This document shows positions 158 to 17,358 of a stretch of DNA of 64,000 bases, in pieces. The stretch is taken from assembly GCA_949282275.1 (NCBI GenBank), contig CASDOO010000035.1:13625-77624 (forward strand). Direction: 5' to 3'. Position 1 is the first letter of the stretch, and each line of letters opens with the position of its first letter. Below the pieces are notes generated by a model. The model worked only from the letters and a program-made list of their open reading frames with translations. It was not told the DNA's origin and did not search any database. The translations under genes were made by a program, and so were the position numbers. This stretch comes from an uncultured Bacillota bacterium. GTDB lineage: Bacteria; Bacillota_I; Bacilli_A; RFN20; CAG-288.

Positions 158-1495
158 ATGAAAAGGGTATTTAAGAGAAAAATATATGACGAAATGCTGG
201 AATGGAAAGAAAATCTGAGCGATAAATATGCCTTATTGATCAAGGGGGCAAGACGCATTGGAAAAAGTACCATTGCCGAGGAATTCGCGAAAAAGGAATT
301 CAAATCCTATGTCCTAATTGATTTTGCACATACGAATAGAGACATCATCGATTTGTTTGATGACATGTATGATCTTGATTTTTTCTTTTTGCGGCTTCAA
401 CAGTTTACGGGCGTTCGTCTGTATGACAAGGAATCTGTCATCATCTTTGATGAAGTCCAGCTTCTACCGAAAGCAAGACAGGCAATTAAGTATCTTGTTG
501 CGGATGGGAGGTACAAGTACATCGAGACAGGATCGTTGCTTTCCATAAAGAAAAATACGAAAGAAATTTTGATTCCCAGCGAAGAACACAAAATAGCCAT
601 GTATCCAATGGATTTCGAAGAATTTCTATGGGCAATCGGAGACAATCTGACGGCGGATACGATTAGACATCTTATGAAGGAAAGGAAACCTGCCGGCAAT
701 TCATTACACAGAAACCTAATGCGTATCTTTAGGCTCTATATGCTTATTGGCGGAATGCCGCAGGCCATAGAATCCTATATTGAAAGCAATAATCTGCAAA
801 TCGTGGATAAGGCAAAAAGAGAAATCATTGATCTATACGAAGAGGATTTCGTCAAAATCGACGGTACAGGCCTTGCTAGCGACATTTATGATTCCATACC
901 GGCAAGCCTGAGCAAAAACACAGCGAGGTATGTGCTGGCAACGGCAAGGGATGGATTGCGGTCTAGTCGAGTTTGCAAATTGATTCCGGATATGCTCAGT
1001 TCTTATACTGTCTGTATTGCCTATCATGCAAACAATCCCAATGTAGGCATGGCTTTGGAAAAGGATATCGATCGTTATAAGCTATTCCTTTCGGATGTTG
1101 GATTGTTTATCACATTGGCATTCAAAGACAAGAAATTCACCGATAATGTGATTTACAACAAGCTTTTATCCAATAAACTGGACGCGAATTTGGGCTATAT
1201 ATATGAAAATGCCGTAGCGCAAATGCTATTGGCAAAAGGATACAATCTTTTTTACTATACGATGAAAGTCGAGAAATCGAATCATTTACACGAAATCGAT
1301 TTTCTGATTACGATAGGCAATAAAATATGCCCGATAGAGGTTAAATCCGGAAATTATCAATCCCATAAATCGCTGGATTTGTTCTGTGACAAGTTTAGCA
1401 AGAGGATCCAAGAAAAATACGTCATCCATACGAAAGACTACAAATCTGAAAACGGAATCCGTTATCTTCCAATCTATATGGTTCCGTTTCTATGA
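158..1495 (+). CDS. AAA+ ATPase with a C-terminal PD-(D/E)xK-like (DUF4143-type) domain
   Basis: 445-aa ORF. Walker A-like 'GARRIGKST' and Walker B-like 'VIIFDEVQ'. C-terminal 'HEIDFLI...PIEVKSG' fits a D..ExK nuclease-fold motif. RBS 'gaggtga' lies upstream of ATG 158. Confidence 0.85.
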   Translation: MKRVFKRKIYDEMLEWKENLSDKYALLIKGARRIGKSTIAEEFAKKEFKSYVLIDFAHTNRDIIDLFDDMYDLDFFFLRLQQFTGVRLYDKESVIIFDEVQLLPKARQAIKYLVADGRYKYIETGSLLSIKKNTKEILIPSEEHKIAMYPMDFEEFLWAIGDNLTADTIRHLMKERKPAGNSLHRNLMRIFRLYMLIGGMPQAIESYIESNNLQIVDKAKREIIDLYEEDFVKIDGTGLASDIYDSIPASLSKNTARYVLATARDGLRSSRVCKLIPDMLSSYTVCIAYHANNPNVGMALEKDIDRYKLFLSDVGLFITLAFKDKKFTDNVIYNKLLSNKLDANLGYIYENAVAQMLLAKGYNLFYYTMKVEKSNHLHEIDFLITIGNKICPIEVKSGNYQSHKSLDLFCDKFSKRIQEKYVIHTKDYKSENGIRYLPIYMVPFL

Positions 1496-4068: not shown

Positions 4069-4074
4069 GCGGAC

Positions 4075-4103
4075 ATTATACTACGTAGGAAAAGGCATGC
4101 CGA
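4075..4103 (-). promoter_or_regulatory. Candidate sigma-A promoter giving a leaderless transcript for the acyltransferase-ligase pair
   Basis: On the minus strand a perfect TATAAT (4080-4075) ends 6 nt before the ATG at 4068. The -35-like TCGGCA sits 17 nt upstream. There is no Shine-Dalgarno between them. Confidence 0.35.
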
Positions 4104-4324
4104 AGGGGAAATGAGGAATGGGAAGGGACAATAGAAAGACACCTATTGGGGTTTCTTGAATTTAAGATGTCAACGAATGACTTCATATGTCGGATGTCCT
4201 TGACAAGTGGCAAGCGGGGGGAAAAGATACCTGTAAATTATCGAAAAACCTTTTCATAAGTAAATAAGCTATTTTTCGTATTTGTACTTTGTGATGCCAG
4301 AATTTGTTTTTAAAAGTAATGAAT

Positions 4325-4439
4325 CCAACGACAAAATCCATCGGCTCCAAAGAGATTCGGCTTACACGTAGGGGCAGGAAAAATCTTCCCATGAAAGGGG
4401 ATGGAAAGCCTGATGGCTTGTCGTTGGGTTTGTTTTTTT
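4325..4439 (+). ncRNA. Candidate structured RNA element of unknown class, with nested helices ending in a U-tract
   Basis: Perfect 10-bp long-range helix ccaacgacaa (4325-4334) / ttgtcgttgg (4418-4427). It encloses a second helix ccatcggct (4338-4346) / agcc-t-gatgg (4407-4416) and small internal hairpins. It is followed by gtttgttttttt (4428-4439). Confidence 0.25.
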
Positions 4440-4577
4440 CGTCCTTTCTACCAAATAAGTAGTGAAGCATGGCAACGTGCTTCTGAAGGGACTCGGCGCC
4501 GGTTCTGCCTCTTTTCATTTCTTGCTTTGTTTCCGTCTTCCGCCGACAGGGACACTGTCGGAGAAAGGAGGTGAGTC

Positions 4578-4676
4578 ATGGGAATATTCGATGTTCTCGG
4601 ACTTCTTTTTCTTTATCTCATCCTCAAGCTCTTCGACAAAAAGGGAAAAAAGAAAAAGAACCGTGATGATCACTGA
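4578..4676 (+). CDS. Small hydrophobic peptide with a Lys-rich tail (type I toxin-like), 32 aa
   Basis: Below the ORF-track cutoff. Hand translation of atg gga ata ttc ... cac tga gives MGIFDVLGLLFLYLILKLFDKKGKKKKNRDDH. Near-perfect RBS aaaggagg with a 6-nt spacer. A 7-bp hairpin (4543-4561) abuts the RBS. Confidence 0.45.
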   Translation: MGIFDVLGLLFLYLILKLFDKKGKKKKNRDDH

Positions 4677-4722
4677 CTGGCCAGTTAGCTGATCATGAGG
4701 CAGAGCCTCCGCCGGTTCCTTT
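4641..4722 (-). ncRNA. Candidate antisense sRNA (type I antitoxin-like) overlapping the 3' end of the small peptide ORF
   Basis: Deduced from the minus-strand promoter at 4729-4757. A 12-bp hairpin (4667-4695) is followed on the minus strand by tcacgg then ttctttttcttttttcccttttt. The 6-nt gap before the U-run weakens the terminator call. Confidence 0.3.
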
Positions 4723-4728
4723 AATGAA

Positions 4729-4757
4729 ATTATAGGGAGAGGGGACAAGGATTTCAA
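4729..4757 (-). promoter_or_regulatory. Near-consensus sigma-A promoter on the minus strand, facing the small peptide ORF
   Basis: Minus-strand reading is TTGAAA, then a 17-nt spacer (tccttgtcccctctccc), then TATAAT. No protein-coding ORF with an RBS lies downstream of it. Confidence 0.5.
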
Positions 4758-5135
4758 GGTTCACAAGTGTACAGGCTTGCCTCTTTGAATGGTCAATAAA
4801 GTACTAAGAACAAAGGCTTTATGGATATTCTTTCGTATCTTTTTCCCAACATATCCATACAGGAGAGCCTCGATGGTCTTAGACACGTTTTATATCGTTG
4901 GCAATCATGCCAAAGAGTCTCGAGGTTTCTTTCTTCTTGTATGGGAAAAGGACAAGAATGAGACCTGGAAAAGGCTCTGTTGCCCTTTTGTGGCAGGAAA
5001 GTTTCCTTTCTTCTGCCGTGGGAGACAAAAAGAGGCAGAAAATATGAAGGCAACTTATCGCATAGCTATCTCGTCAATAAAGTTGGTTCTTGAAAAAGAG
5101 ATTGCTCTCTCATGTAAATCATCGGGCTTTTAATG

Positions 5136-5164
5136 TTGTAAAGGTCATTTGGCCGAACTATAAT
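5136..5164 (+). promoter_or_regulatory. Sigma-A promoter of the three-gene SMC-like operon
   Basis: TTGTAA (5136-5141), a 17-nt spacer, then TATAAT (5159-5164). The predicted TSS is about 5170-5172. Confidence 0.55.
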
Positions 5165-5168
5165 TTTA

Positions 5169-6668
5169 TTGAACTTATGTGGAAAGGCGGTAAACGTTTT
5201 GGCAAGACTCTTTGATAGGATTCCAGGGGATCTCTTCTCCCCGCTGTCGCGAAAATACAAGGCGATATACGCATTTGCCCTCGTCTGCCTCTATCGTTGT
5301 CTTCGTTTGTACAAAACGGATATCAAGAGAAGCGACTATGTTTCCCTGCTGAAGAGCCAGGGACAGGAGCTTCTCGATCTCTTTTCGGTCGAGATGGACC
5401 AACTGGATGACAAGAGCGATGAGGAAAAGGTCGCTCCCGACAAGAATGCCGAGGATGATTTCTCTTCGAAGATTTCCTATGTCGTCCGCAAGCTTTCCAC
5501 CTGCGGATGGTTCATCCTGAGCAAGAATCCCAAGAACGGCGTCGAATATATCTATATTCCGGCCTATTCCATCCAGCTTCTCAAGCTTATCAATGACCTG
5601 ACGACGGATGTCGGCACCTATCTCCCTCTTGTCCACCAGACCTATGCCGAGCTGAAGATGGAAGACGACAAGGAAGACGACTACATGTATCGCTCCCTGC
5701 TCAACGCAAGAAGCAATGCCGACTCCATCGAGATGTCCGTCACCTTGCTCAAGCAGCAGATCTGCGTCTTCGGAAACCGCCTGACTTCCGTCCTCGACCC
5801 CAACATCGCCCTCAAGCAGCATTTCGACGAATATCGTACATCGATTTCGGACAAGTACTATCATCCGATGAAGACGTTCGACTCCCTGGGCCTCTATTCC
5901 CAGCCGACGATCGCCATCCTCAACCGCTGGCTCAAGAGCGAACGCATCATCACCCTCATGGTAAGGGAAGCCAAGGGCGAGCCGGTCAACCGCAACAGGG
6001 ACGAATCGAGCATTGCCAAGGACATCATCAAGACCATCAACGAGATCATCGACATCTTCTCCAGGCTGACGGCATCCTTCAACGACATCGACAGGGCCAA
6101 TGCCAACTATACCGAGGCGGTCCAGAAGAAGGTCAACTATCTCTCCGCCACCGACAAGACCATCAAGGGCAAGATCGACAGGATCATCCTTGCCATGGCA
6201 AGCGAGATCAAGAACAATCCCGCCCTCCGCTATGAGGAGCTTCCTATCTGCGAGAAGGCCAGGAACACCCTCAATCTCATCCGCCAGGGCTATCTCGACA
6301 GCCGTTCCCTGACGATGCCCTTCAAGAGGGGGACGATCGAGGAAGGCGAACCGCTTCCGATGGACGACGATTTCTATCCCGACGAGCAGTTCGGACTCTT
6401 CAGCCAGAGACTGGACGAGGAGCTCAACCGTTTCTCCGATTCGGCCATCCTCGAATTCATCGATGCCCTGATGGCAGGCAAGGACGAGATGACGACCTAT
6501 GACATTCCGATAGCCGATGCCGACCAGCTGGTCCTGATGATCCTCGCCATCCTCAAGTGCAAGCTCAACCTCATCCCCTATACGGCCGAGAAAATCGAGG
6601 ACAGGGTCGACTATGCCGGATACTATATGCCCCTATACAAGTTCACCAGGAAGAAGAGAGCGAGGTAG
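5169..6668 (+). CDS. JetA/MksF-like (kleisin-position) protein, first gene of the SMC-like operon
   Basis: Maximal ORF of 499 aa starts at TTG 5169. Because the predicted TSS is about 5171, the in-frame TTG at 5199, preceded by ggaaaggcgg, is the more likely start (489 aa). The sequence is helical with no enzymatic motif visible by eye. The function call rests on size and position upstream of JetB/JetC-like genes. Confidence 0.6.
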   Translation: MNLCGKAVNVLARLFDRIPGDLFSPLSRKYKAIYAFALVCLYRCLRLYKTDIKRSDYVSLLKSQGQELLDLFSVEMDQLDDKSDEEKVAPDKNAEDDFSSKISYVVRKLSTCGWFILSKNPKNGVEYIYIPAYSIQLLKLINDLTTDVGTYLPLVHQTYAELKMEDDKEDDYMYRSLLNARSNADSIEMSVTLLKQQICVFGNRLTSVLDPNIALKQHFDEYRTSISDKYYHPMKTFDSLGLYSQPTIAILNRWLKSERIITLMVREAKGEPVNRNRDESSIAKDIIKTINEIIDIFSRLTASFNDIDRANANYTEAVQKKVNYLSATDKTIKGKIDRIILAMASEIKNNPALRYEELPICEKARNTLNLIRQGYLDSRSLTMPFKRGTIEEGEPLPMDDDFYPDEQFGLFSQRLDEELNRFSDSAILEFIDALMAGKDEMTTYDIPIADADQLVLMILAILKCKLNLIPYTAEKIEDRVDYAGYYMPLYKFTRKKRAR

Positions 6669-6673
6669 ACAAC

Positions 6674-7396
6674 ATGTTCACAGAAGATTATGAAAAACTG
6701 ACGCGCGGCGAGAGGACACTCTTCTCGGAAGCCCTCAACGATCTCCTCTACCAGTGCTTCATCGTCCGCAAGAGCTACGACAGGAAGAGCCGCATGTTCA
6801 AGGCCGATCCCGACTATCTCTTCATCGAGAGGCACTATTCCATGTTCGAGGACTATCTCTCCTACATGGACATGGACCTGAACAAGTCGGACGAGGACGG
6901 CATCATCTACATCACCTCCGGCGCGGAGAAGAACCACCTCCGCATCGATACCGTCACGACCCTCATCGTCTATGCCCTGCGCTCCTACTATGAGGACCAG
7001 ATCGGAAAGGCCCCGGAGGAGACGGAAGTCCTGATGACCTATGGAAGCCTCAACAGCCTCCTTCAGGAGACCGGCCTTTCCAACCTCACCAAGAGGCTTT
7101 CCTCCTCGACGATCGCCTCTTCCCTGCGTACCTTGGATTCCTACAACGTCATCACCAGGGCAAACGGCACCTATGGCGAGCCTTCCTATAGCTTCTTCAT
7201 CCTTCCGACCATCAAGTTCGTCATCTCCGCCGAGAAGATGAATGCCCTCTATGGCTTCTTGACGAAGCCCGAGGAACCGACGATGGATGGCCAGCTTTCC
7301 AACGCCTTCGATGCCGCCGTTTCCAAGCCCGAGGAAAAGGCAAGCGAGGAAACGCCGCTGAGGACGGGCGTCGACATTCCCGTCAAGGAGGACTAA
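6674..7396 (+). CDS. JetB/MksE-like small subunit (240 aa) with an acidic C-terminal tail
   Basis: ATG 6674 (MFTEDYEKL...) is preceded by gagg with a 6-nt spacer, 5 nt after the upstream stop. Size, winged-helix-like segment ('IASSLRTLDSYNVITRANG') and acidic tail fit MukE/MksE/JetB-type proteins. The longer track ORF from 6557 overlaps gene 1. Confidence 0.6.
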   Translation: MFTEDYEKLTRGERTLFSEALNDLLYQCFIVRKSYDRKSRMFKADPDYLFIERHYSMFEDYLSYMDMDLNKSDEDGIIYITSGAEKNHLRIDTVTTLIVYALRSYYEDQIGKAPEETEVLMTYGSLNSLLQETGLSNLTKRLSSSTIASSLRTLDSYNVITRANGTYGEPSYSFFILPTIKFVISAEKMNALYGFLTKPEEPTMDGQLSNAFDAAVSKPEEKASEETPLRTGVDIPVKED

Positions 7397-7399
7397 GAC

Positions 7400-10300
7400 A
7401 TGAAGAACCTCGTCAAGCTCCGTCTCATCAACTGGCACTACTTCTCCAACACGACGACGGATATCAAGAACATCACCTTCCTCACCGGCCCCAACGGTAC
7501 CGGAAAGTCCACCATCATCGATGCCATGCAGATCCTCATCCTGGGATCGACCCGTCCGGACAACTTCAACAAGGCCGCCAACGAAAAGGGCCGTTCCGGA
7601 AGAAGCCTTCTTTCCTATCTCCGTGGACAGACCGGCGTCAGCGACAACGGCAACGTCATCAACCTTCGTCCCGGAAACTTCACCTCCTACATCGCCATGG
7701 AGATCTTCGACGACCAGGAAGACAGGACCTTTACCCTTGGTGTCGTCTTCGACGTCGATAGCGCCGACAACGTCGACAAGCACTACTTCTACCTGGATTC
7801 CCACTTCCCGGAGAACGGTTTCTCCAACTCCGATACCGAGAGCAATCCCAAGAAGGTCCGTCCCTTGATGTACCGGGAGCTTTCCGCCTATGTCCGCCAG
7901 AACTACAAGGTCAACCACTTCCGCTTCTTCGATACCGACACGGACTACCAGACCTTCACCAAGGAGGCCTTCGGAAACCTCCCCGACAAGTACTTCTCCC
8001 TCTTCAAGAAGGCCGTCTCCTTCGCCCCGATCAGCGATATCTCTTCCTTCATCACGGAATATATCTGCGACGTCGACAAGACCGTCGACATCGAGCCGAT
8101 GAAGAAGAACATCGAGCAGTACAAGATCCTCGAGCTCGAGGCCAAGAACCTCAAGACCAAGGTCGAGTGCCTGACCAAGATCAAGGACACCTTCGATTCC
8201 GTCCGCTCCTACAACAAGCGTCTGGACATGCTCACCTACGTCAATTCCCGTGTCCTCTACGAGGAGGGAAGAAGGAAACTCCAGGGACTCCAGGAAATGC
8301 TCGAGAAGGACAACCACAGGCTGATTGCCATCTCCGACCAGCTTGCCATCTACGATTCCCAGATCGAGGAGCTGAGGAAGGACATGTCCTCCTACCAGGC
8401 CAAGAAGCTCCAGTCCTCCAGCTACTCCCTGACCGAGAAGCTCTCGATGAAGAAGGACAACATCACCAAGCAGATCGCCAGCATCGAGATGCAGGTCTCC
8501 TCCGTCATGACGAAATTGACCCATTATGTCAACGACTATCTGGACGTCTGCCAGAACTTCGTCACCTTCTATTCCCAGTTCGATACCAAGCGTCTTGGCG
8601 GGAAGGTCGCCGCTTCCTTCGACGAGCTCCTTGAGCTTCTGAGGGATATCGTCGGCGAATGCCGCTCGCTTATCGATGCCATCGACACGGACCAGGTCGA
8701 CTTCTCCGCCGTCAAGGCCTTCCGCAACGACATGGAGCATCTCAAGAACCTGGCCATCCAGACGCGCTCCCTCCTCAACGAGGAACTCTACAAGATCGCT
8801 TCCGACCTCCAGTCCCTCCAGAGGGACCTCAGCGAGGTCAATTCCGGACAGAAGCCCTTCTCCCAGCTTGGCCCCAACTACCTCGCCATCAAGAATGCCT
8901 TGGAGACGGCCCTCAAGAGCCGGCATTCGGATAGCTATGTCCATATCTATTGCGACTTGGTCGACGTCAACGATTCCGAATGGACGATGGCCCTGGAAGC
9001 CGTCCTCTTCAACCAGAAGTTCAACTTCTTCGTCAATCCCAAGTACTACGAGGAGGCAAACCGCATCCTCAAGGAACTGGTCGCCAACTACAACTATTAC
9101 CGCGTCTCCCTGGTCGACACGGAAAGGCTTCTTGCCTCCAACATCGTCGCAAACGACGATTCCATCGCACATTTGATCGACACGAAGGACGAGGGCGCCA
9201 GGGTCTATACCGACTACCTCTTGGGACGCATCCGCAAGTGCCAGACCTTCGAAGAGGCCAGGCGTTCCGGATCGGGCCTTCTTTCCGACTGCACCGGCTA
9301 CCGCGGCTTTGCCACCTGGTATCTGAACAAGGCCAATGCCAGGGTCTTCTTCCTTGGGACCCAGGTCTCAAGCGACACCAAGGCCCTCTCCGCAAAGGAC
9401 TACCAGGAGATGAACAGGCGCCATTCCCTCTTTGCCGAGGCCCTCAACAAGATCCAGACCCTATTGACCCTTCCGGTCATGTCCGAGGCGGAACTGCAGA
9501 CCTATCAGGCCGACATCGACAGGACGAGCGAGATCGCCGGACTGCAGCAGAGCCTGAACAACGTCGACAGCGAGATGCACGATGCCTCTATGGGCGACAT
9601 GAACGAGGTCCAGAAGAAGATCGACGCCATCCAGGCCGACATCGACACGCTCAACAGGGAAAGGGAGGACCTCCTTACCGAGAGAGGCTCCCTCATCAAC
9701 GAGACCAGCCGTCTCAATGGCGAGGAAATCCCCATCGCCACCAAGAACATGGAGGACTTCAAGAGGGAGCTCTCCCACTTCGACGAGAAGGTCGTCAACG
9801 AGGAATACGAGCCCTTCTTCAACAAGCTCCTCGACGAGCAGAAGATGACCCTTCCCCAGATCCGCACCGAGGCCAGCAAGGAATACCTCCAGGCCTCCAA
9901 CAAGCAGCGCTACGACAGGGAGAACCTCCTGCGCCTGCGCTCCGACTATTGCGCCGCCTACCACCTCAACTACGACACCACTTCCCTGACGAGCAACGAC
10001 GAGTTCGAAAAGGAACTGGAGAACATCTCCAAGGTCATGCTGCCGGAGTACGAGGAGAAGATCCGCCAGGCCCACGAAGCCTCCATCCGCGAATTCAAGG
10101 ACGACTTCGTCTACAAGCTGAGGACCTCCATCGAGACGGTCCATGCCCAGATCGACGAGCTCAACCAGGCCCTTGCCGACAGCCATTTCGGAAGGGATAC
10201 CTACCAGTTCAAGATCACGCCCAACAAGGACTACATCGAATACTACGACATGATCATGGATCCGCTCCTTCTCAAGGCGGGCGATGCCGAGCAGCTCTTC

Positions 10301-10903
10301 ATGGAGAAGTACAAGACCACCATGGATGACCTCTTCACCCTCATCTCCTCCTCCACTTCCGCCAAGGCCGAGGAAAGGGAGCAGGTCTTCCAGAACGTGA
10401 AGATCTTCACCTCCTACACGACCTACATCCTCTTCGACCTCCTTGTCATCCGCGGCGAGGGCGAGAACGCCCAGACGATCTCCCTTGGCCGTTCCTTCAA
10501 GAGCCAGTCCGGCGGCGAGACACAGACGCCTTTCTACATCGCCATCCTCGCCTCCTTTGCCTCCCTCTGCCGTGCCAACAACCCCAAGGACAACAACACG
10601 CTCCGTCTTGTCATTTTCGACGAGGCCTTCTCCAAGATGGACTCCGCCCGTATCCGCCGTTCCACCGACCTATTGAGGCAGTTTGGCCTCCAGGCGATCC
10701 TCTCCACGCCAAGCGAGAAGCTCAGGGACCTTGTCAGCTATGTCGATTTGATCCTCGTTGCCATCCACGACGACAGGAGGAAGCGCTCCGGCCTGGACGT
10801 CTACCAGGACAAGAAGAAGGCCAGGCAGGAAAACGACAAGGAAGACACGCCTCCGGAAGGGACGCCTTCTCCCTCCGGAGAGGAAATGCCAGCCGTCCAG
10901 TAA
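7400..10903 (+). CDS. SMC-like ATPase of the MukB/MksB/JetC type (1167 aa)
   Basis: N-terminus 'LRLINWHYFSNTT..ITFLTGPNGTGKSTIIDAMQILILG' (Walker A). Long heptad-rich middle with a globular hinge-like segment around residues 520-640. C-terminal 'QSGGETQ' signature and Walker B 'LRLVIFDEAFSKMD'. It starts 3 nt after gene 2. Confidence 0.9.
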   Translation: MKNLVKLRLINWHYFSNTTTDIKNITFLTGPNGTGKSTIIDAMQILILGSTRPDNFNKAANEKGRSGRSLLSYLRGQTGVSDNGNVINLRPGNFTSYIAMEIFDDQEDRTFTLGVVFDVDSADNVDKHYFYLDSHFPENGFSNSDTESNPKKVRPLMYRELSAYVRQNYKVNHFRFFDTDTDYQTFTKEAFGNLPDKYFSLFKKAVSFAPISDISSFITEYICDVDKTVDIEPMKKNIEQYKILELEAKNLKTKVECLTKIKDTFDSVRSYNKRLDMLTYVNSRVLYEEGRRKLQGLQEMLEKDNHRLIAISDQLAIYDSQIEELRKDMSSYQAKKLQSSSYSLTEKLSMKKDNITKQIASIEMQVSSVMTKLTHYVNDYLDVCQNFVTFYSQFDTKRLGGKVAASFDELLELLRDIVGECRSLIDAIDTDQVDFSAVKAFRNDMEHLKNLAIQTRSLLNEELYKIASDLQSLQRDLSEVNSGQKPFSQLGPNYLAIKNALETALKSRHSDSYVHIYCDLVDVNDSEWTMALEAVLFNQKFNFFVNPKYYEEANRILKELVANYNYYRVSLVDTERLLASNIVANDDSIAHLIDTKDEGARVYTDYLLGRIRKCQTFEEARRSGSGLLSDCTGYRGFATWYLNKANARVFFLGTQVSSDTKALSAKDYQEMNRRHSLFAEALNKIQTLLTLPVMSEAELQTYQADIDRTSEIAGLQQSLNNVDSEMHDASMGDMNEVQKKIDAIQADIDTLNREREDLLTERGSLINETSRLNGEEIPIATKNMEDFKRELSHFDEKVVNEEYEPFFNKLLDEQKMTLPQIRTEASKEYLQASNKQRYDRENLLRLRSDYCAAYHLNYDTTSLTSNDEFEKELENISKVMLPEYEEKIRQAHEASIREFKDDFVYKLRTSIETVHAQIDELNQALADSHFGRDTYQFKITPNKDYIEYYDMIMDPLLLKAGDAEQLFMEKYKTTMDDLFTLISSSTSAKAEEREQVFQNVKIFTSYTTYILFDLLVIRGEGENAQTISLGRSFKSQSGGETQTPFYIAILASFASLCRANNPKDNNTLRLVIFDEAFSKMDSARIRRSTDLLRQFGLQAILSTPSEKLRDLVSYVDLILVAIHDDRRKRSGLDVYQDKKKARQENDKEDTPPEGTPSPSGEEMPAVQ

Positions 10904-10912
10904 ACAGGAAAC

Positions 10913-10950
10913 AAGGCTCCGTCCCGCACCGGGAAGGAGCCTTTTCTTCG
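10913..10950 (+). terminator. Rho-independent terminator closing the SMC-like operon
   Basis: ggctccgtcccg-cac-cgggaaggagcc is a 12-bp stem with one mismatch. It is flanked by aa/tt and followed by ttttcttcg. It begins 10 nt after the stop codon. Confidence 0.75.
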
Positions 10951-10997
10951 TCCACGGAAAAAGGCCCCGAAGGGCCCAGTCGGATTGGTTCGATGGG

Positions 10998-11249
10998 CTA
11001 GCCCTTGAGTCCGCGGGCCTGCCTGTCCATGTCCTCGACGACGATGTCATAGATCTCGCCAAGGCTGGAGCAGTATTCCAATACCTTCCACGGCTCGTTG
11101 GTGTGGAAGTGGATCTTGATGAGGCTGTCGTCGCCGACGGCAAGGAGGCAATCGCCCTTGAAGTGGGTGCGGAAGTAGTCGTTGATGGCGTCCTCGTTTA
11201 GGCCCTTGCCTTCGATGAGCAACTGCGTGTCATAGCGGAATTCGATCAT
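10998..11249 (-). CDS. Small stand-alone protein resembling the middle domain of YloV/FakA (DAK2-fusion) proteins
   Basis: 83 aa. 'GDCLLAVGDDSLIKIHFHTNEPWKVLEYCSSLGEIYDIVVEDMDRQ' matches the GDS-LVVGD..vKvHvHT..P..vle...G....i.ieNM..Q pattern I recall for YloV. Strong RBS aaggaga upstream. Confidence 0.55.
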   Translation of the reverse strand: MIEFRYDTQLLIEGKGLNEDAINDYFRTHFKGDCLLAVGDDSLIKIHFHTNEPWKVLEYCSSLGEIYDIVVEDMDRQARGLKG

Positions 11250-11436: not shown

Positions 11437-11548
11437 ATGCCATCGTCACGTCCGAAAGACAAAAGGATTGGTCATGATTGCCTTTCCGCGTTAATATTTC
11501 TTTAACATCGCGATGCTATCCTCTTTCGGGATGATCCATGGAGGCGTT

Positions 11549-12220
11549 ATGGTACAGATATTGCTTGCGGAAGACGACAAGGCGCTTAACGAGCTGCTGC
11601 TTTCGGCCTTGAAAAGGGAAGGCTATGCGGTCTTTCCGGCCTTCGACGGAAAGGAAGCGCTCGATATCTTCGAAAGGGAGAAGATCGACCTTTTGGTGAC
11701 GGACGTCATGATGCCGGTGATGGATGGCTTTGCCTTGGCTGGCCGGATACGCGACCTTGACGAGAAGGTGCCGATTCTCTTCCTGACGGCCCTTGATGAC
11801 AAGAACTCCAAGGAAAAAGGCTTCCGCCTCGGCATCGACGACTACGTGGAGAAGCCCTTCGACATGGACATCCTCCTTCTGAGGATCGCCTCCCTTCTGA
11901 GGCGGGCGAACATCCAGATGAAGAAGGAACTTGTCGTCGGCAACCTGCGCATGGACGAGGAGGAGCATACGGCCTATGTCGACGGCGAGGAACTCAACCT
12001 GACCGTCCGGGAATTCGATTTGCTCTTCAAGCTTCTCTCCTTCCCGAAGAAGACCTTCACGAGAGGACAGCTGATGGACGAGTTCTGGGGATACGATTCC
12101 TCCGCCACGAGCCGCACGGTGGACGTCTACATGTCCAAGCTAAGGGAGAAGACGGCGTCCTGCGATGGCTTCCGCATCGTGACCATGCATGGCCTGGGAT
12201 ACAAGGCGGTGCTTTCATGA
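11549..12220 (+). CDS. OmpR/PhoB-family response regulator
   Basis: Receiver domain 'ILLAEDD...DLLVTDVMMPVMDG' and C-terminal winged-helix 'LTVREFDLLFKLL...VDVYMSKLREK'. Start chosen at ATG 11549 (MVQILLAEDD) after ggagg. The track ORF begins at 11513. Confidence 0.9.
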   Translation: MVQILLAEDDKALNELLLSALKREGYAVFPAFDGKEALDIFEREKIDLLVTDVMMPVMDGFALAGRIRDLDEKVPILFLTALDDKNSKEKGFRLGIDDYVEKPFDMDILLLRIASLLRRANIQMKKELVVGNLRMDEEEHTAYVDGEELNLTVREFDLLFKLLSFPKKTFTRGQLMDEFWGYDSSATSRTVDVYMSKLREKTASCDGFRIVTMHGLGYKAVLS

Positions 12221-13272
12221 ACGGGCGAAGGAAATGGCGCTTTTCCATCGCCGGGACGCTGCTTCAGTCGATTTACTTCCTCATCATCGTCACGATCAGC
12301 ATCTGGGTCTACAACAGGGCAGTGGAAACCTTTCCCGGGAGGACGTTCATCGTCATCCTCCTTATTGCCCTCTGTGTTCTCTTCTTTTCCCTGACGAGCG
12401 GACTTATGGACATCGCCCGAAGGAAGTGGACGATCGACCAGCCCGTGGAGAAGATAACCGACTTCACCTCCCTCATCGCCAAGGGCAACTTCAAGAGCCG
12501 CCTTCCCCTCGAGGAGAACCGCTTCTCCCCGCTGGAGTTCTCCCTCATCGCGGACAACCTCAACAAGATGGCCGAGGAACTGGAGAAGAACGAGGTTCTC
12601 AAGGAGGATTTCATATCCAACGTCTCCCATGAGATGAAGACGCCTCTTGCCATCCTTTCGGGCTATGCCAAGGCACTCCAGGATCCGTCCCTTGACGAAG
12701 AGACGCGAAAGAAATACCTCCAGACGATCGAGACGACCGCAAACAATCTCTCTCAGCTTGTCAAGAACATCCTCAGCCTCAGCCGATTGGAGAACCAGAA
12801 GATCCTTCCGAACATGAAAGAAGTCCAGGCCGACGAGATTCTTTCCGAGACCATCCTTCTCTATGAGGAGAAAATCGAGGAGAAGGACATCCAGCTGGAA
12901 TGCGACATCGACGAGATCCGTTTCGTCAGCGAGCCCTCCTTCCTGAAGATCGTCTATTCCAACATCCTTTCCAATGCCGTCAAGTTCACAAGGGAGGGCG
13001 GAAGGATCGTTGTCTCCCTGAAGAAGGAGGGCGAAGAAGCCGTCTTCAGGGTCCAGGACGAAGGCCCCGGAATCGCCAAGGAGAACCTTTCGCATATCTT
13101 CGAGAAGTTCTATCAGGAGGACACCTCCCATGCCAAGGAGGGAAACGGCCTAGGCCTTGCCCTCGTCAAGGAAGTCATCGACCGGCTTGGCGGGACGATC
13201 GAAGTGGAAAGCGAAATCGGCGTCGGGACGACCTTCGTCATCACGCAGAAACTCAAGGAGAAGGAACAATGA
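12217..13272 (+). CDS. Sensor histidine kinase, intramembrane-sensing type
   Basis: Two TM helices separated by an approximately 11-aa loop, then a HAMP-like linker. H-box 'SNVSHEMKTPLAIL' and HATPase motifs 'NAVKFT', 'DEGPGI', 'GNGLGL'. ATGA overlap with the regulator gene. Confidence 0.9.
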   Translation: MNGRRKWRFSIAGTLLQSIYFLIIVTISIWVYNRAVETFPGRTFIVILLIALCVLFFSLTSGLMDIARRKWTIDQPVEKITDFTSLIAKGNFKSRLPLEENRFSPLEFSLIADNLNKMAEELEKNEVLKEDFISNVSHEMKTPLAILSGYAKALQDPSLDEETRKKYLQTIETTANNLSQLVKNILSLSRLENQKILPNMKEVQADEILSETILLYEEKIEEKDIQLECDIDEIRFVSEPSFLKIVYSNILSNAVKFTREGGRIVVSLKKEGEEAVFRVQDEGPGIAKENLSHIFEKFYQEDTSHAKEGNGLGLALVKEVIDRLGGTIEVESEIGVGTTFVITQKLKEKEQ

Positions 13273-13670
13273 GGAACAAAGGCGAAAAAGGCTCTTATTC
13301 CTATCGCGCCCCGACCGACAAGGAGCGAAAGGAAATCGAAGCCATAAGGGAGAAATATCTCGACACGAACATGGCCCCGACGCTGACCCGGATCAAGAAG
13401 CTCGACCGGATGGCCCGGAGGCTTGCCTTCTATCCTGCGCTCATCGTCGGGCTTCTGGGATTCTGTGCCTTTGGCCTTGGGATGGCCTTTTGCCTGGAGT
13501 GGAAAATCCTCCATGTCGGCATTCCCTTGACCATCGTCGGCATCCTTCTTCTTCTTCTGACGGTTCCTTTCCATACCTTCCTGGGCCGGGTGCTGAAGAG
13601 GCGCTTCGGGCCGGAGATCCTTTCCCTGTCGGGCAAGATCCTCCAGGAAGAGGAGAAAAAGGAAGAATGA
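13269..13670 (+). CDS. Small two-TM membrane protein (133 aa), paralog 1
   Basis: ATG 13269 overlaps the kinase stop (ATGA). Charged helical N-terminus, two adjacent hydrophobic helices and a short basic/acidic tail. Confidence 0.7.
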   Translation: MRNKGEKGSYSYRAPTDKERKEIEAIREKYLDTNMAPTLTRIKKLDRMARRLAFYPALIVGLLGFCAFGLGMAFCLEWKILHVGIPLTIVGILLLLLTVPFHTFLGRVLKRRFGPEILSLSGKILQEEEKKEE

Positions 13671-13792
13671 CGTGACGGCTTTTGGCCGTTAACAAAATCC
13701 TTACAAAAAGAATACAAACAAAATACAAAACGTTCACATTGACGCAAAAAAGGCCTCCTAGAATAGTGGTGCAATCGTCAAGGAGGCATACG

Positions 13793-14149
13793 ATGGACGC
13801 AAGGGAAAGAAACTACGTCGAATCCGTCCGCAAGGCCTATTCGCCGGAAGGGAAGGAAGACGACCGATACGTCGAGCTAAGGAAGCTGGAGAAGAAGATA
13901 AAGAGGCCGATCGAGATCCTGGGATTTTTCCTTGGCATCGTCGGCGTCCTGCTTTTCGGATTCGGCTTGTGCATCTGCCTTGGTGCCGTGGAAATCGACA
14001 TTGCCATCGGCATCGTCCTGGGCCTTGTCGGCCTTGCCGTCGTCATCGTCAACTATCCGTTCGGAAGGCACCTTCTTGAAAGAAGGAAGAAGCGCTACGC
14101 CAAGGAGGTCCTTGACCTTACCGACTCGCTTCTCAACATCAAGGAATAG
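13793..14149 (+). CDS. Small two-TM membrane protein (118 aa), paralog 2
   Basis: ATG 13793 follows aaggagg. It aligns by eye with paralog 1, e.g. 'LGFFLGIVGVLLFGFGL' vs 'IVGLLGFCAFGLGM', and 'RRKKRYAKEVLDL' vs 'LKRRFGPEILSL'. Confidence 0.7.
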   Translation: MDARERNYVESVRKAYSPEGKEDDRYVELRKLEKKIKRPIEILGFFLGIVGVLLFGFGLCICLGAVEIDIAIGIVLGLVGLAVVIVNYPFGRHLLERRKKRYAKEVLDLTDSLLNIKE

Positions 14150-14163
14150 GGAGGGCTTGGAAA

Positions 14164-14955
14164 ATGGATCTTTTCCGGAAGGTTTTCTATCCGATCGAAT
14201 CCCTCGTCTACTTCGTCTTGATGGTCCTTGCCGTAACGACCATCTGCGGCGCGACGCACTATTGGGACGTCACCCAGGCCCAGACCATTGTCATTGCCAC
14301 CGTCTCGGGCATGATCGGCGTCTTCGCCCCGGCCATCGTGGAGAAACTCTTCAAGATCAAGTTCTCCCACCTGATCGACATCATCATCGCCGTTGACCTC
14401 TTCGCCGCCGTCATCCTGGGCGAGGCCTTGACCCTCTACTACTATTTCCCGGGTATGGACAAGATCTTCCACTTCTTCGCCACGGCCGAGCTTGCCCTGG
14501 GTGGCTATGTCGTTGCCAAGTACTTCCTCAGGAAGACGAACAAGGGATCGCATCAGGTCCTCTTCGCCCTTGTCTTCGCCTTCTTCTTCGCCATCGCCTT
14601 CCAGGCCTTCTGGGAACTCTATGAATTCACCTTCGACCAGATCGCCGGCACGAACATGCAGAAGTACATTCCTTCCGAGTTCTACGACAGGATCGACGTC
14701 GACGGCAACCTCCAGCTCTCCCAGGAGGAAATCGCCGCCTTCTATAGTCAGTTCGGCGGCTACCACTTCGCCCTCGAGGATACGATGTTCGACTTCGTCG
14801 CCGATATCCTTGGCGCCCTGACGGGCTGCGTCGGCTGCGCCGTCGCCTTCCACTTCTATCCCCAGCTTCAGGACCATATCATCTATCGTCCCACGGAAGG
14901 CGTGATCCTGGACGAGGCGAAGGAAGGCAACCTCAACGAGAAGAGGCAGAATTAG
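14164..14955 (+). CDS. Multi-pass membrane protein of unknown function with an EF-hand-like loop
   Basis: 263 aa with about six hydrophobic segments and RBS gggaggg. The loop 'DVDGNLQLSQEE' lies between TM segments. Confidence 0.7.
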   Translation: MDLFRKVFYPIESLVYFVLMVLAVTTICGATHYWDVTQAQTIVIATVSGMIGVFAPAIVEKLFKIKFSHLIDIIIAVDLFAAVILGEALTLYYYFPGMDKIFHFFATAELALGGYVVAKYFLRKTNKGSHQVLFALVFAFFFAIAFQAFWELYEFTFDQIAGTNMQKYIPSEFYDRIDVDGNLQLSQEEIAAFYSQFGGYHFALEDTMFDFVADILGALTGCVGCAVAFHFYPQLQDHIIYRPTEGVILDEAKEGNLNEKRQN

Positions 14956-14968
14956 ACTTTCCAAGACA

Positions 14969-14996
14969 GGGCAGGCCAAAAAGCCTGCCTTTTTTC
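14969..14996. terminator. Hairpin terminator between convergent genes
   Basis: ggcaggc-caaaaa-gcctgcc followed by tttttt. A second imperfect hairpin at about 15009-15033 serves the minus-strand gene. Confidence 0.6.
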
Positions 14997-15043
14997 GTGC
15001 AAAGGAAAAGCCCCGGCACTCGGCCGAGGCTTGTAGACGTGTC

Positions 15044-17104: not shown

Positions 17105-17358
17105 GCTTTTTCTCCTTTGGAAACGCTTACACAAAGTATACAGGAAAAAGTTTCCCGGGAAAAGGGAGAAGCTGGAAAAGGGCCAAGAATCGCAAAAGAG
17201 GGCCTTATGCACCAAAGGAAAAGCTACGCGGATATTTTCCTAGGCAAGCGACAAAAGAGGAAATCCGAAAGGCAGTTTGCGGTGAAAAAGCTACTTTTTA
17301 CCAATATTTGACATTTCTTCCTTTTCTATATAAAAACGATGTTTTATAATATTTTCCG

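What the first reader, a model, noticed from the sequence alone, without database searches (positions are those of the whole stretch)
5136..10950. JetABC/MksFEB-like SMC operon with no JetD/MksG nuclease: an orphan Wadjet-like or novel condensin-type system
This is a self-contained transcription unit. It has a near-consensus promoter (TTGTAA-17-TATAAT), three tightly packed genes with gaps of 5 and 3 nt, and a strong terminator beginning 10 nt after the last stop. The genes are a 489/499-aa helical protein, a 240-aa protein with winged-helix-like segments and an acidic tail, and a 1167-aa SMC-like ATPase. The ATPase has the MukB/JetC-type N-terminus (LINWHYF..FLTGPNGTGKSTIIDAMQ), a long coiled coil with a central hinge-like module, an SGGE signature and the Walker B DEAFSKMD. 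Gene order and sizes match JetA-JetB-JetC of Wadjet and MksF-E-B. The fourth gene, JetD/MksG (the Toprim nuclease that executes plasmid cleavage), is absent. The downstream neighbour is a convergent 83-aa gene, and only 94 bp of non-coding DNA lies in between. The first two proteins are too divergent for me to place in known JetA/JetB families by eye. The locus borders an AT-rich accessory patch carrying a TA-like module and an AAA+/nuclease-fold ATPase, which suggests accessory or defence status rather than a core condensin. Three readings are possible: a nuclease-free DNA-sensing/compaction system, a system using an effector encoded in trans, or a new Wadjet-related subtype.
Basis: partly seen in the sequence, partly recalled or inferred. 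Interest (0 to 1): 0.8.

Follow-up and report, generated by a model that had tools for sequence, protein, structure and literature searches.

The report
Nuclease-free Wadjet SMC operon, clade-conserved
This is a three-gene DNA-looping motor of the Wadjet anti-plasmid type that has no DNA-cutting subunit and is inherited like a housekeeping gene set across a whole clade of uncultured gut Bacilli, so it probably organises the chromosome instead of destroying plasmids.

Summary
A promoter, three tightly packed genes and a strong terminator sit at 5136-10949. They are clear type I Wadjet subunits: JetA (PADLOC E 1e-88), JetB (2.5e-65) and JetC (4e-292).

JetD is absent. A JetD profile built from the nearest JetD-bearing relatives finds nothing in the 64-kb window or in about 570 kb from about 25 related loci. 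It finds JetD directly after jetC in all 19 outgroup loci that have downstream DNA.

The JetD-less operons form one clade (Ca. Enterosoma / family CAG-288 / order RFN20 Bacilli). They occupy one chromosomal site, between glgB and glgCDA. They co-diverge with the glg genes, track host GC from 0.30 to 0.57, keep all ATPase motifs and evolve at dN/dS 0.04-0.16.

The operon therefore looks like a vertically inherited core gene set, not an accessory island. The AT-rich patch beside it is a separate, lineage-specific insertion.

The best reading is a domesticated Wadjet: a loop-extruding JetABC working as an MksBEF/MukBEF-like chromosome organiser. That function is inferred, not shown.

I could not test whether Smc-ScpAB, or a jetD encoded elsewhere, exists in the genome.

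The parts
5136..5164 (+). Sigma-70-type promoter TTGTAA-17-TATAAT of the jetABC operon
   Evidence: Promoter scan, 10 of 12 consensus positions. Both hexamers are conserved in L002 and L003.
5181..5190 (+). Likely Shine-Dalgarno sequence (GGAAAGGCGG) for jetA
   Evidence: Read directly from the sequence. Conserved in L002 and L003.
5199..6668 (+). jetA, the kleisin-type subunit. 489 aa from TTG 5199; the longest ORF starts at TTG 5169 (499 aa).
   Evidence: Pfam PF18982 JetA: E 1.3e-62, 212 bits against a cut-off of 26. PADLOC JetA1 PDLC00449: E 1.2e-88 over the full length. dN/dS 0.04-0.07.
6674..7396 (+). jetB, the KITE-type (MukE/MksE-like) subunit. 240 aa with a variable acidic C-terminal tail.
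   Evidence: Pfam DUF4194/JetB PF13835: E 5e-16. MksE PF21980 is below its threshold. PADLOC JetB1 PDLC00502: E 2.5e-65. dN/dS 0.075-0.12.
7400..10903 (+). jetC, the SMC-family ATPase. 1167 aa. Walker A at residues 30-38, hinge-like module around 519-622, SGGE signature at 1036-1039, Walker B VIFDEAF.
   Evidence: PADLOC JetC1 PDLC00519: E 3.8e-292, 970 bits, full length. Pfam AAA_29 and SbcC_Walker_B. PDB JetC 9qxt/8as8/8dk2: E 1e-13 to 1e-16. ATPase motifs are at least 90% conserved in the clade. dN/dS 0.085-0.16.
10915..10949 (+). Intrinsic terminator: GC-rich hairpin followed by UUUUCUUC
   Evidence: RNA fold dG -24.6 kcal/mol, z -3.77, 1 of 200 shuffles folds as well.
10904..10997 (.). 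94-bp intergenic space at the position where jetD sits, overlapping the jetC stop, in JetD-bearing relatives. No jetD remnant is present.
   Evidence: JetD HMM against the six-frame translation: no hit in the window. The sequence holds only the two convergent terminators.

Best explanation
**What it is.** The locus is a nuclease-free descendant of a type I Wadjet system. JetA is the kleisin, JetB forms the KITE dimer and JetC is the SMC-type ATPase. Together they should assemble into the usual dimer-of-motors ring complex, which hydrolyses ATP and extrudes DNA loops. No JetD Toprim nuclease is encoded with it, so the complex cannot carry out the plasmid-cleavage step that defines Wadjet immunity.

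**What I infer it does.** In this lineage of uncultured gut Bacilli (Ca. Enterosoma / family CAG-288 / order RFN20) the operon has been retained as a vertically inherited core chromosomal gene set. It most likely acts on the host chromosome as a condensin-like organiser and segregation aid. That is the role MksBEF plays in Pseudomonas and MukBEF plays in enterobacteria.

**Shown here.**
- Subunit identities.
- Intact ATPase motifs.
- Absence of jetD in cis throughout the clade.
- Conserved synteny, co-divergence with neighbouring genes and strong purifying selection.

**Inferred.** Loop extrusion (from experiments on homologous JetABC) and the chromosomal role.
For: 1. **Identity.** All three proteins give full-length, high-scoring matches to JetA, JetB and JetC models.
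2. **No JetD.** I built an HMM from 14 JetD sequences of the nearest relatives; Pfam JetD_C was confirmed on two of them. It hits every outgroup locus that has downstream DNA (19 loci, E 1e-23 to 1e-176). It hits nothing (best E 0.4) in the six-frame translation of the 64-kb window or the other clade loci, about 567 kb in total.
3. **One clade.** The 21 JetD-less JetC sequences group together, apart from the 17 JetD-bearing ones. Both groups best-match the same PADLOC model, PDLC00519. Loss of jetD in a common ancestor is the parsimonious reading.
4. **Core-gene behaviour.**
   - The position is conserved: glgB-plsC-(AMP-binding)-(acyltransferase)-jetABC-glgC-glgD-glgA.
   - JetC identity tracks GlgC/GlgD/GlgA identity (Spearman 0.82/0.50/0.74).
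   - Operon GC tracks flank GC over 0.30-0.57 (r = 0.99).
   - dN/dS is 0.04-0.16, lower than the neighbouring AMP-binding enzyme at 0.15-0.29.
   - The promoter is conserved.
   - The rest of the window is core genome: rlmN, prkC, rpe, adhE, dnaJ, grpE, hrcA, comEC, mutSL.
5. **Published biochemistry.** JetABC without JetD hydrolyses ATP and extrudes loops symmetrically, and no cleavage occurs without JetD (PMC10889018).
Against: - There is no functional evidence for any chromosomal role.
- Whole genomes of the clade could not be scanned. A jetD or another nuclease encoded elsewhere, and the presence or absence of smc-scpAB, are both unknown.
- By sequence the proteins remain ordinary type I Wadjet subunits. 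They do not meet the MksE or SMC_N Pfam thresholds, and the MukB match only just reaches its cut-off. I saw no adaptive change pointing to a new role; for example, the JetB N-terminus looks the same in both groups.
- Linked genes co-diverging is also what a long-resident defence locus would show.
- The tree is neighbour-joining with midpoint rooting. Nesting inside JetD-bearing lineages was not formally demonstrated.
Confidence: 0.6

Rival explanations
1. It is still a plasmid-defence Wadjet whose nuclease is encoded in trans. JetABC senses small circular DNA by loop extrusion and recruits a JetD, or an unrelated nuclease, encoded elsewhere in the genome.
For: The subunits are bona fide type I Wadjet proteins and match the same PADLOC model as JetD-bearing systems. 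Only the 64-kb window and about 8 kb either side of the operon in relatives were searched. A candidate defence ATPase (PDC-S01) lies 3.7 kb upstream in this lineage.
Against: In all 19 outgroup loci jetD directly follows jetC, mostly overlapping its stop codon. Loss of that coupling in every member of a deep clade would be unusual for an obligate partner. The PDC-S01 gene is lineage-specific, low in GC, and separated from the operon by two conserved housekeeping genes on the other strand.
Confidence: 0.15
2. It is a nuclease-free defence or control system for mobile DNA. JetABC compacts, silences or mis-segregates small circular DNA without cutting it, as Smc5/6 silences extrachromosomal DNA in eukaryotes.
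For: JetABC alone extrudes a whole plasmid and then stalls on it (PMC10889018). SMC-based silencing without cleavage has precedent (PMC10586767). Strong purifying selection is compatible with any useful function.
Against: In studied Wadjet systems, removing or inactivating JetD abolishes cleavage (PMC10889018). Strict vertical inheritance at one chromosomal site with host-like composition is atypical for defence genes, which usually turn over quickly.
Confidence: 0.17
3. It is a decaying remnant of a Wadjet system after deletion of jetD, or an assembly artefact.
For: The downstream 83-aa ORF is only a FakA middle domain, which hints at local rearrangement. One relative, L016, has jetC split into two ORFs.
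Against: All three ORFs are intact. dN/dS is 0.04-0.16. ATPase motifs are at least 90% conserved across 21 genomes. The promoter and terminator are conserved. The arrangement is identical in independent assemblies.
Confidence: 0.02

Closest known systems
Type I Wadjet JetABCD (E. coli GF4-3, P. aeruginosa PA14; Bacillota relatives such as Allofournierella massiliensis L022 and Ca. Formimonas warabiya L028)
   Same: The gene order jetA-jetB-jetC is the same, as are the Pfam and PADLOC families (JetA PF18982, JetB DUF4194, JetC1 PDLC00519). The ATPase motifs match. PDB JetC chains are the only solved-structure hits.
   Different: There is no jetD here or in about 25 loci of the clade, whereas every sampled outgroup has jetD overlapping the jetC stop. 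The operon behaves as a syntenic core locus, not a mobile defence island. JetC identity to the nearest JetD-bearing relatives is only 25-32%.
MksBEF of Pseudomonas aeruginosa and MksB of Mycobacterium smegmatis (nuclease-free Muk-like condensins)
   Same: Both are three-subunit kleisin/KITE/SMC operons without the MksG/JetD nuclease. [quoted passage not shown]
   Different: Sequence membership is not met. MksE PF21980 scores 21.5 bits against a cut-off of 27, and there is no MksF/MukF match. The proteins here are still typical type I Jet subunits. The host is a reduced-genome member of the Bacilli, not a proteobacterium or actinobacterium. The chromosomal role is untested.
MukBEF of enterobacteria
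   Same: Both are vertically inherited, clade-wide, nuclease-free SMC complexes with a kleisin and a KITE subunit. The JetC N-terminal head gives a marginal MukB PF04310 match (23.5 bits against a cut-off of 23).
   Different: Sequence similarity is otherwise very distant. MukBEF is known to have replaced Smc-ScpAB; whether that happened here is unknown.
Smc-ScpAB
   Same: Both have the general SMC architecture: head, coiled coil, hinge-like module, plus kleisin and KITE partners.
   Different: SMC_N scores 29 bits against a cut-off of 40 and SMC_hinge 21.7 against 22.5, both below threshold. TIGR02169 SMC_prok_A scores 18.5 bits against a cut-off of 729. The partner genes are JetA and JetB, not ScpA and ScpB.

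Membership tests
Wadjet type I (JetABCD) | JetA kleisin-like subunit (Pfam PF18982; PADLOC JetA1) | tested here: met
   PF18982: E 1.3e-62, 212 bits against a cut-off of 26.2. PDLC00449: E 1.2e-88, model positions 2-463 of 464.
Wadjet type I (JetABCD) | JetB KITE subunit (DUF4194/PF13835; PADLOC JetB1) | tested here: met
   PF13835: E 5.2e-16, 59 bits against a cut-off of 32.7. PDLC00502: E 2.5e-65.
Wadjet type I (JetABCD) | JetC SMC-family ATPase (AAA_29 plus SbcC_Walker_B; PADLOC JetC1) with intact Walker A, signature and Walker B motifs | tested here: met
   PDLC00519: E 3.8e-292, full length. AAA_29 7e-18 and SbcC_Walker_B 3.5e-19. Motifs conserved across the clade.
Wadjet type I (JetABCD) | JetD Toprim nuclease (JetD_C PF09983 plus DUF3322) encoded in the operon | tested here: not met
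   A custom JetD HMM hits 19 of 19 outgroup loci. It hits nothing in the window or the other clade loci, about 567 kb in total. The neighbours are FakA_M, GlgC and similar genes. Whole genomes were not searched.
Wadjet type I (JetABCD) | ATP-dependent cleavage of small circular DNA; restriction of plasmids | not testable with these tools
   Needs biochemistry or transformation assays. Published work shows no cleavage without JetD (PMC10889018).
MksBEF/MukBEF (nuclease-free bacterial condensins) | Kleisin-KITE-SMC operon with no associated nuclease gene | tested here: met
MksBEF/MukBEF (nuclease-free bacterial condensins) | Sequence membership in the MksB/E/F or MukB/E/F families | tested here: not met
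   MksE PF21980: 21.5 bits, below the cut-off of 27. MukB PF04310: 23.5 bits against 23, head region only. No MukF or MksF match.
MksBEF/MukBEF (nuclease-free bacterial condensins) | Clade-wide vertical inheritance as a core chromosomal locus (as for MukBEF) | tested here: met
   Conserved synteny in about 25 loci, co-divergence with GlgC/D/A, GC tracking at r = 0.99, dN/dS 0.04-0.16. The denominator, meaning all genomes of the clade, was not sampled.
MksBEF/MukBEF (nuclease-free bacterial condensins) | Role in chromosome organisation or segregation | not testable with these tools
   Needs Hi-C, ChIP and mutant phenotypes.
MksBEF/MukBEF (nuclease-free bacterial condensins) | Replacement of Smc-ScpAB in the host genome (MukBEF-type scenario) | not tested
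No smc gene lies in the 64-kb window.
Smc-ScpAB | SMC protein above the SMC_N, SMC_hinge and TIGR02169 thresholds, with ScpA/ScpB partners | tested here: not met
   SMC_N 29 against 40 bits, SMC_hinge 21.7 against 22.5, TIGR02169 18.5 against 729. The partner genes are JetA and JetB.

The most novel reading that the evidence does not exclude
In the wall-less, reduced-genome CAG-288/RFN20 Bacilli, this JetD-less JetABC may have become the principal or sole condensin, replacing Smc-ScpAB. That would be an independent, evolutionarily young replay of the event proposed to have created MukBEF. It would be caught at a stage where the proteins are still recognisable type I Wadjet subunits. It would provide a natural intermediate for testing how a plasmid-killing SMC machine is converted into a chromosome-segregation machine.
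Probability: 0.15. Interest if true: 0.85.

Novelty: new variant of a known kind. Interest (0 to 1): 0.6.

Why it matters
SMC researchers have proposed that MukBEF and MksBEF are domesticated Wadjet systems that lost their nuclease. The known nuclease-free complexes are so diverged that this transition cannot be reconstructed.

This clade may capture the transition. By sequence it still carries an ordinary type I JetABC. It has lost JetD, and the operon behaves as a core, syntenic, strongly constrained chromosomal locus. At least 120 protein clusters (90% identity) fall in this JetC range.

Three consequences follow:
- It offers a testable intermediate: a comparison with JetD-bearing relatives that match the same JetC model.
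- Defence-system annotators should not count such loci as incomplete Wadjet.
- It raises the question of how chromosome organisation works in wall-less gut Bacilli.

Tried and rejected
1. **F13 as a divergent JetD or replacement effector.** F13 is a 341-382-aa ORF directly after jetC in deep-branching relatives. I rejected it for four reasons:
   - it has two N-terminal transmembrane helices and no Toprim motifs;
   - it has no Pfam or JetD-HMM hit;
   - it stays next to glgC, not jetC, when the two are separated (L014, L019);
   - it is absent from the window's subclade.
2. **JetD remnants.** I looked in the 94-bp jetC-distal spacer and anywhere in the window by six-frame HMM. None were found.
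3. **Profile searches of JetA and JetB alignments against PDB sequences.** There were no hits, so I obtained no fold-level confirmation of the kleisin and KITE assignments.
4. **AlphaFold.** I did not run it, because alignments containing locus-derived sequences are not admissible and a single-sequence model would be poor.
5. **Mapping the published JetD-docking site.** The site is E. coli JetC F919 in the 'larynx' plus a JetB N-terminal helix. The PDB alignment covers only the head motifs, so F919 could not be mapped. JetB N-termini look alike in the JetD-less and JetD-bearing groups, so no signal emerged.
6. **Known codon reassignments in this genus and order (AGG to Met, CGG to Trp; 10.1101/2021.06.18.448887).** These could have corrupted the translations. 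I rejected this for the window: AGG aligns with R/K in orthologues, and ATG usage is normal at 240 per 10,000 codons.
7. **Testing for smc-scpAB or a trans jetD in the genome.** This was not possible.
8. **Literature.** Five searches found no description of a JetD-less type I JetABC clade.
Full report
**1. The observation**

The region contains three same-strand ORFs: 5169/5199-6668, 6674-7396 and 7400-10903. The gaps between them are 5 and 3 nt.

A TTGTAA-17-TATAAT promoter lies at 5136-5164. Alignment with the two closest relatives shows that three features are conserved: the promoter, a GGAAAGGCGG Shine-Dalgarno sequence, and the TTG at 5199. The upstream TTG at 5169 is not a start codon in L003. 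The PADLOC JetA profile begins at residue 13 of the long ORF. JetA therefore most likely starts at 5199 and is 489 aa.

After the jetC stop, a GC-rich hairpin (10915-10941) is followed by UUUUCUUC. It folds at -24.6 kcal/mol with z -3.8.

The next gene is a convergent 83-aa ORF (10998-11249), 94 bp away. An independent ENA assembly shows the same layout.

**2. What the genes are**

Profile searches place all three without ambiguity.

| Gene | Best matches |
|---|---|
| 1 | Pfam JetA PF18982 (E 1.3e-62); PADLOC JetA1 PDLC00449 (1.2e-88, full length) |
| 2 | DUF4194/JetB (5e-16); PADLOC JetB1 PDLC00502 (2.5e-65) |
| 3 | AAA_29, SbcC_Walker_B; PADLOC JetC1 PDLC00519 (3.8e-292, 970 bits, full length) |

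- The MksE, SMC_N and SMC_hinge models score below their thresholds.
- The MukB N-terminal model only just reaches its threshold.
- NCBIfam SMC models are far below cut-off.
- The only solved structures hit by JetC are Wadjet JetC chains 9qxt, 8as8 and 8dk2.

By sequence this is a type I Wadjet JetABC.

**3. Is JetD really missing?**

A scan of one genome per species found 42 related loci.

- In the distant ones (25-32% JetC identity; Clostridia, Negativicutes), a 393-437-aa ORF directly follows jetC, mostly overlapping its stop codon. Pfam identifies it as JetD_C, with or without DUF3322.
- I built an HMM from 14 of these JetD proteins and searched six-frame translations.
- It found JetD in all 19 outgroup loci that have downstream DNA (E 1e-23 to 1e-176).
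- It found nothing (best E 0.4) in the whole 64-kb window, L001-L019, L032 or L044-L052. That is about 567 kb of DNA from the JetD-less group.
- Six further contexts from the protein database (P0099, P0096, P0114, P0073, P0107 and the exact-match contig) also lack JetD.
- The genes downstream of jetC in these loci are housekeeping genes such as GlgC, a GH3 glycosidase and NAD synthase.

**4. The JetD-less operons are one vertically inherited clade**

*Phylogeny.* In a neighbour-joining tree of 38 JetC sequences, the 21 JetD-less sequences form one group, separate from the 17 JetD-bearing ones. Both groups best-match the same PADLOC JetC1 model. The outgroup scores 1005-1220 bits and the clade 970-1081 bits. 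A single loss of jetD is the parsimonious history.

*Synteny.* The operon sits at one conserved chromosomal site: glgB - plsC - (AMP-binding enzyme, opposite strand) - (HGSNAT-type acyltransferase, opposite strand) - jetA - jetB - jetC - [F13] - glgC - glgD - glgA - rpmF ... rlmN. This holds in genomes whose GC ranges from 0.30 to 0.57 and whose JetC identity to the window ranges from 94% down to 39%.

*Co-divergence.* JetC pairwise identity tracks that of the linked glycogen enzymes. Spearman correlations are 0.82 (GlgC), 0.50 (GlgD) and 0.74 (GlgA). Window-to-relative identities for JetC and GlgA are nearly equal.

*Composition.* Operon GC follows flank GC with r = 0.99.

*Selection.* Between the window, L002 and L003:

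| Gene | dN/dS |
|---|---|
| jetA | 0.04-0.07 |
| jetB | 0.075-0.12 |
| jetC | 0.085-0.16 |
| neighbouring AMP-binding enzyme | 0.15-0.29 |

The jet genes are more constrained than their neighbour. Walker A, the signature motif, Walker B and the surrounding head motifs are at least 90% conserved across the clade.

*Size of the family.* The family is large: 898 database clusters match at E below 1e-30, and the 120 best-scoring clusters all have at least 44% identity to the window JetC.

*Host.* The records for the closest genomes name Ca. Enterosoma merdigallinarum (88% JetC identity) and Clostridium sp. CAG:288 (47%). [quoted passage not shown] CAG-288 is predicted to be peptidoglycan-deficient, and RFN20 genomes are smaller than those of Erysipelotrichales (PMC10868615).

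**5. The surroundings in this window**

The data do not support that argument.

- The low-GC ATPase at 158-1495 (GC 0.39; AAA_14 plus DUF4143; PADLOC candidate PDC-S01, E 4e-101) is separated from the operon by the two conserved syntenic housekeeping genes.
- The 1.1-kb patch at 4069-5168 (GC 0.42) holds small ORFs with no family match. Its small ORFs have counterparts only in the closest relatives.
- Downstream, the window lineage carries an insertion of about 6.4 kb between jetC and glgC. It holds the 83-aa FakA middle-domain ORF, an OmpR-type response regulator and histidine kinase, membrane proteins, and an EF-G-like GTPase.
- The operon itself has host-like composition: GC 0.556 against 0.543, with GC3 of 0.77-0.86.
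- The rest of the window is core genome.

**6. Mechanism**

*Shown.* The locus has an intact kleisin/KITE/SMC-ATPase operon with its own promoter and terminator and no nuclease gene in cis. It is conserved and constrained as a core locus.

*From the literature.* Type I JetABC without JetD hydrolyses ATP and extrudes DNA loops symmetrically. Cleavage needs JetD (PMC10889018). JetD docks on the JetC head 'larynx' (10.1101/2023.11.03.565488).

*Inferred.* This complex extrudes loops but cannot cut. It is kept for a host-beneficial function on the chromosome, meaning organisation and segregation, like MksBEF or MukBEF. This matches the published hypothesis that those condensins arose from Wadjet by loss of JetD (PMC10586767; 10.1101/2025.03.10.642339). 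I put this at about 0.6.

*Rivals.*
- A nuclease encoded in trans: about 0.15.
- Nuclease-free control of plasmids: about 0.17.
- A decaying remnant or artefact: about 0.02, effectively refuted.

**7. Comparison and novelty**

The locus works like MksBEF or MukBEF, but by sequence it is a member of the type I Wadjet JetABC families. It fails the defining JetD criterion for Wadjet and the sequence criteria for Mks/Muk and Smc-ScpAB.

Nuclease-free Muk-like complexes are known in Pseudomonas and mycobacteria. Five literature searches found no description of a clade-wide JetD-less type I JetABC, in Bacillota or elsewhere. I rate it a new variant of a known kind.

**8. Limits**

- I could not test whether Smc-ScpAB or a distant jetD exists in these genomes.
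- Kleisin and KITE folds were not confirmed structurally.
- The tree is distance-based and midpoint-rooted.
- I checked the alternative genetic codes known in this genus and order. They do not apply to this window: AGG aligns with R/K and ATG usage is normal.

Noticed in passing
window 158-1495 (+): A 445-aa ATPase with AAA_14 and DUF4143 domains and a weak NERD-like nuclease match. It matches the PADLOC candidate defence family PDC-S01 (E 4e-101). Its GC is 0.39 against 0.54 for the window, so it is probably a separately acquired defence-type gene and not linked to jetABC.
   Followed up: partly
window 4069-5168: A 1.1-kb AT-rich patch (GC 0.42) lies between the conserved acyltransferase gene and the jetA promoter. 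It holds two overlapping minus-strand small ORFs (4183-4518 and 4515-4757, toxin-antitoxin-like in layout) behind a near-consensus promoter (4757-4729, 11 of 12 positions), plus a 114-aa plus-strand ORF. None has a Pfam or PADLOC match.
   Followed up: partly
window 10998-11249 (-): An 83-aa ORF that consists only of the FakA-like middle domain (PF21645, E 2.6e-19). It has its own terminator at 10977-10962. It is shared with the closest relative L002 and the identical ENA contig L001, but not with the other relatives examined. It may be a stand-alone domain protein or a gene fragment.
   Followed up: no
window 11513-17215: A lineage-specific block sits between jetC and glgC. It holds an OmpR-type response regulator and histidine kinase, small membrane proteins, a DUF2238 protein (per L001), and a 686-723-aa EF-G-like GTPase on the minus strand. 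The GTPase could be an EF-G paralogue or a ribosomal-protection-type protein. In most relatives glgC follows jetC directly or after one gene.
   Followed up: partly
L013:11495-12520, L015:11513-12538, L018:6919-8034, L044:10594-11619, L047:10691-11836, L052:10832-11980: A conserved 341-382-aa protein (F13) has two N-terminal transmembrane helices and no Pfam match. It lies just downstream of jetC and upstream of glgC in the deep-branching half of the clade and is absent from the window. It stays with glgC when separated from jetC (L014, L019). Its function is unknown.
   Followed up: partly
L016:8001-11409: In one MAG, jetC is split into 507-aa and 623-aa ORFs. The close relative L011 has it intact. 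This is either a frameshift pseudogene or an assembly error. Both bins are labelled Paludibacteraceae/Prevotellaceae yet carry this Bacilli-type locus at GC 0.33, which suggests mis-binning.
   Followed up: no
window-wide (codon usage of jetA and jetC): The host genus (Ca. Enterosoma = GTDB UBA7642) contains the only bacteria reported to read AGG as Met, and another RFN20 clade reads CGG as Trp. In this window AGG is frequent (210 per 10,000 codons) but aligns with R/K in orthologues, and ATG usage is normal. The standard code therefore applies here.
   Followed up: yes
window 1-21026 and relatives L004-L052: The jetABC operon, together with an AMP-binding enzyme and an acyltransferase, sits inside what looks like a split glycogen gene cluster: glgB ... 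glgC-glgD-glgA. This implies an ancient insertion into the glg operon in the ancestor of the clade.
   Followed up: partly
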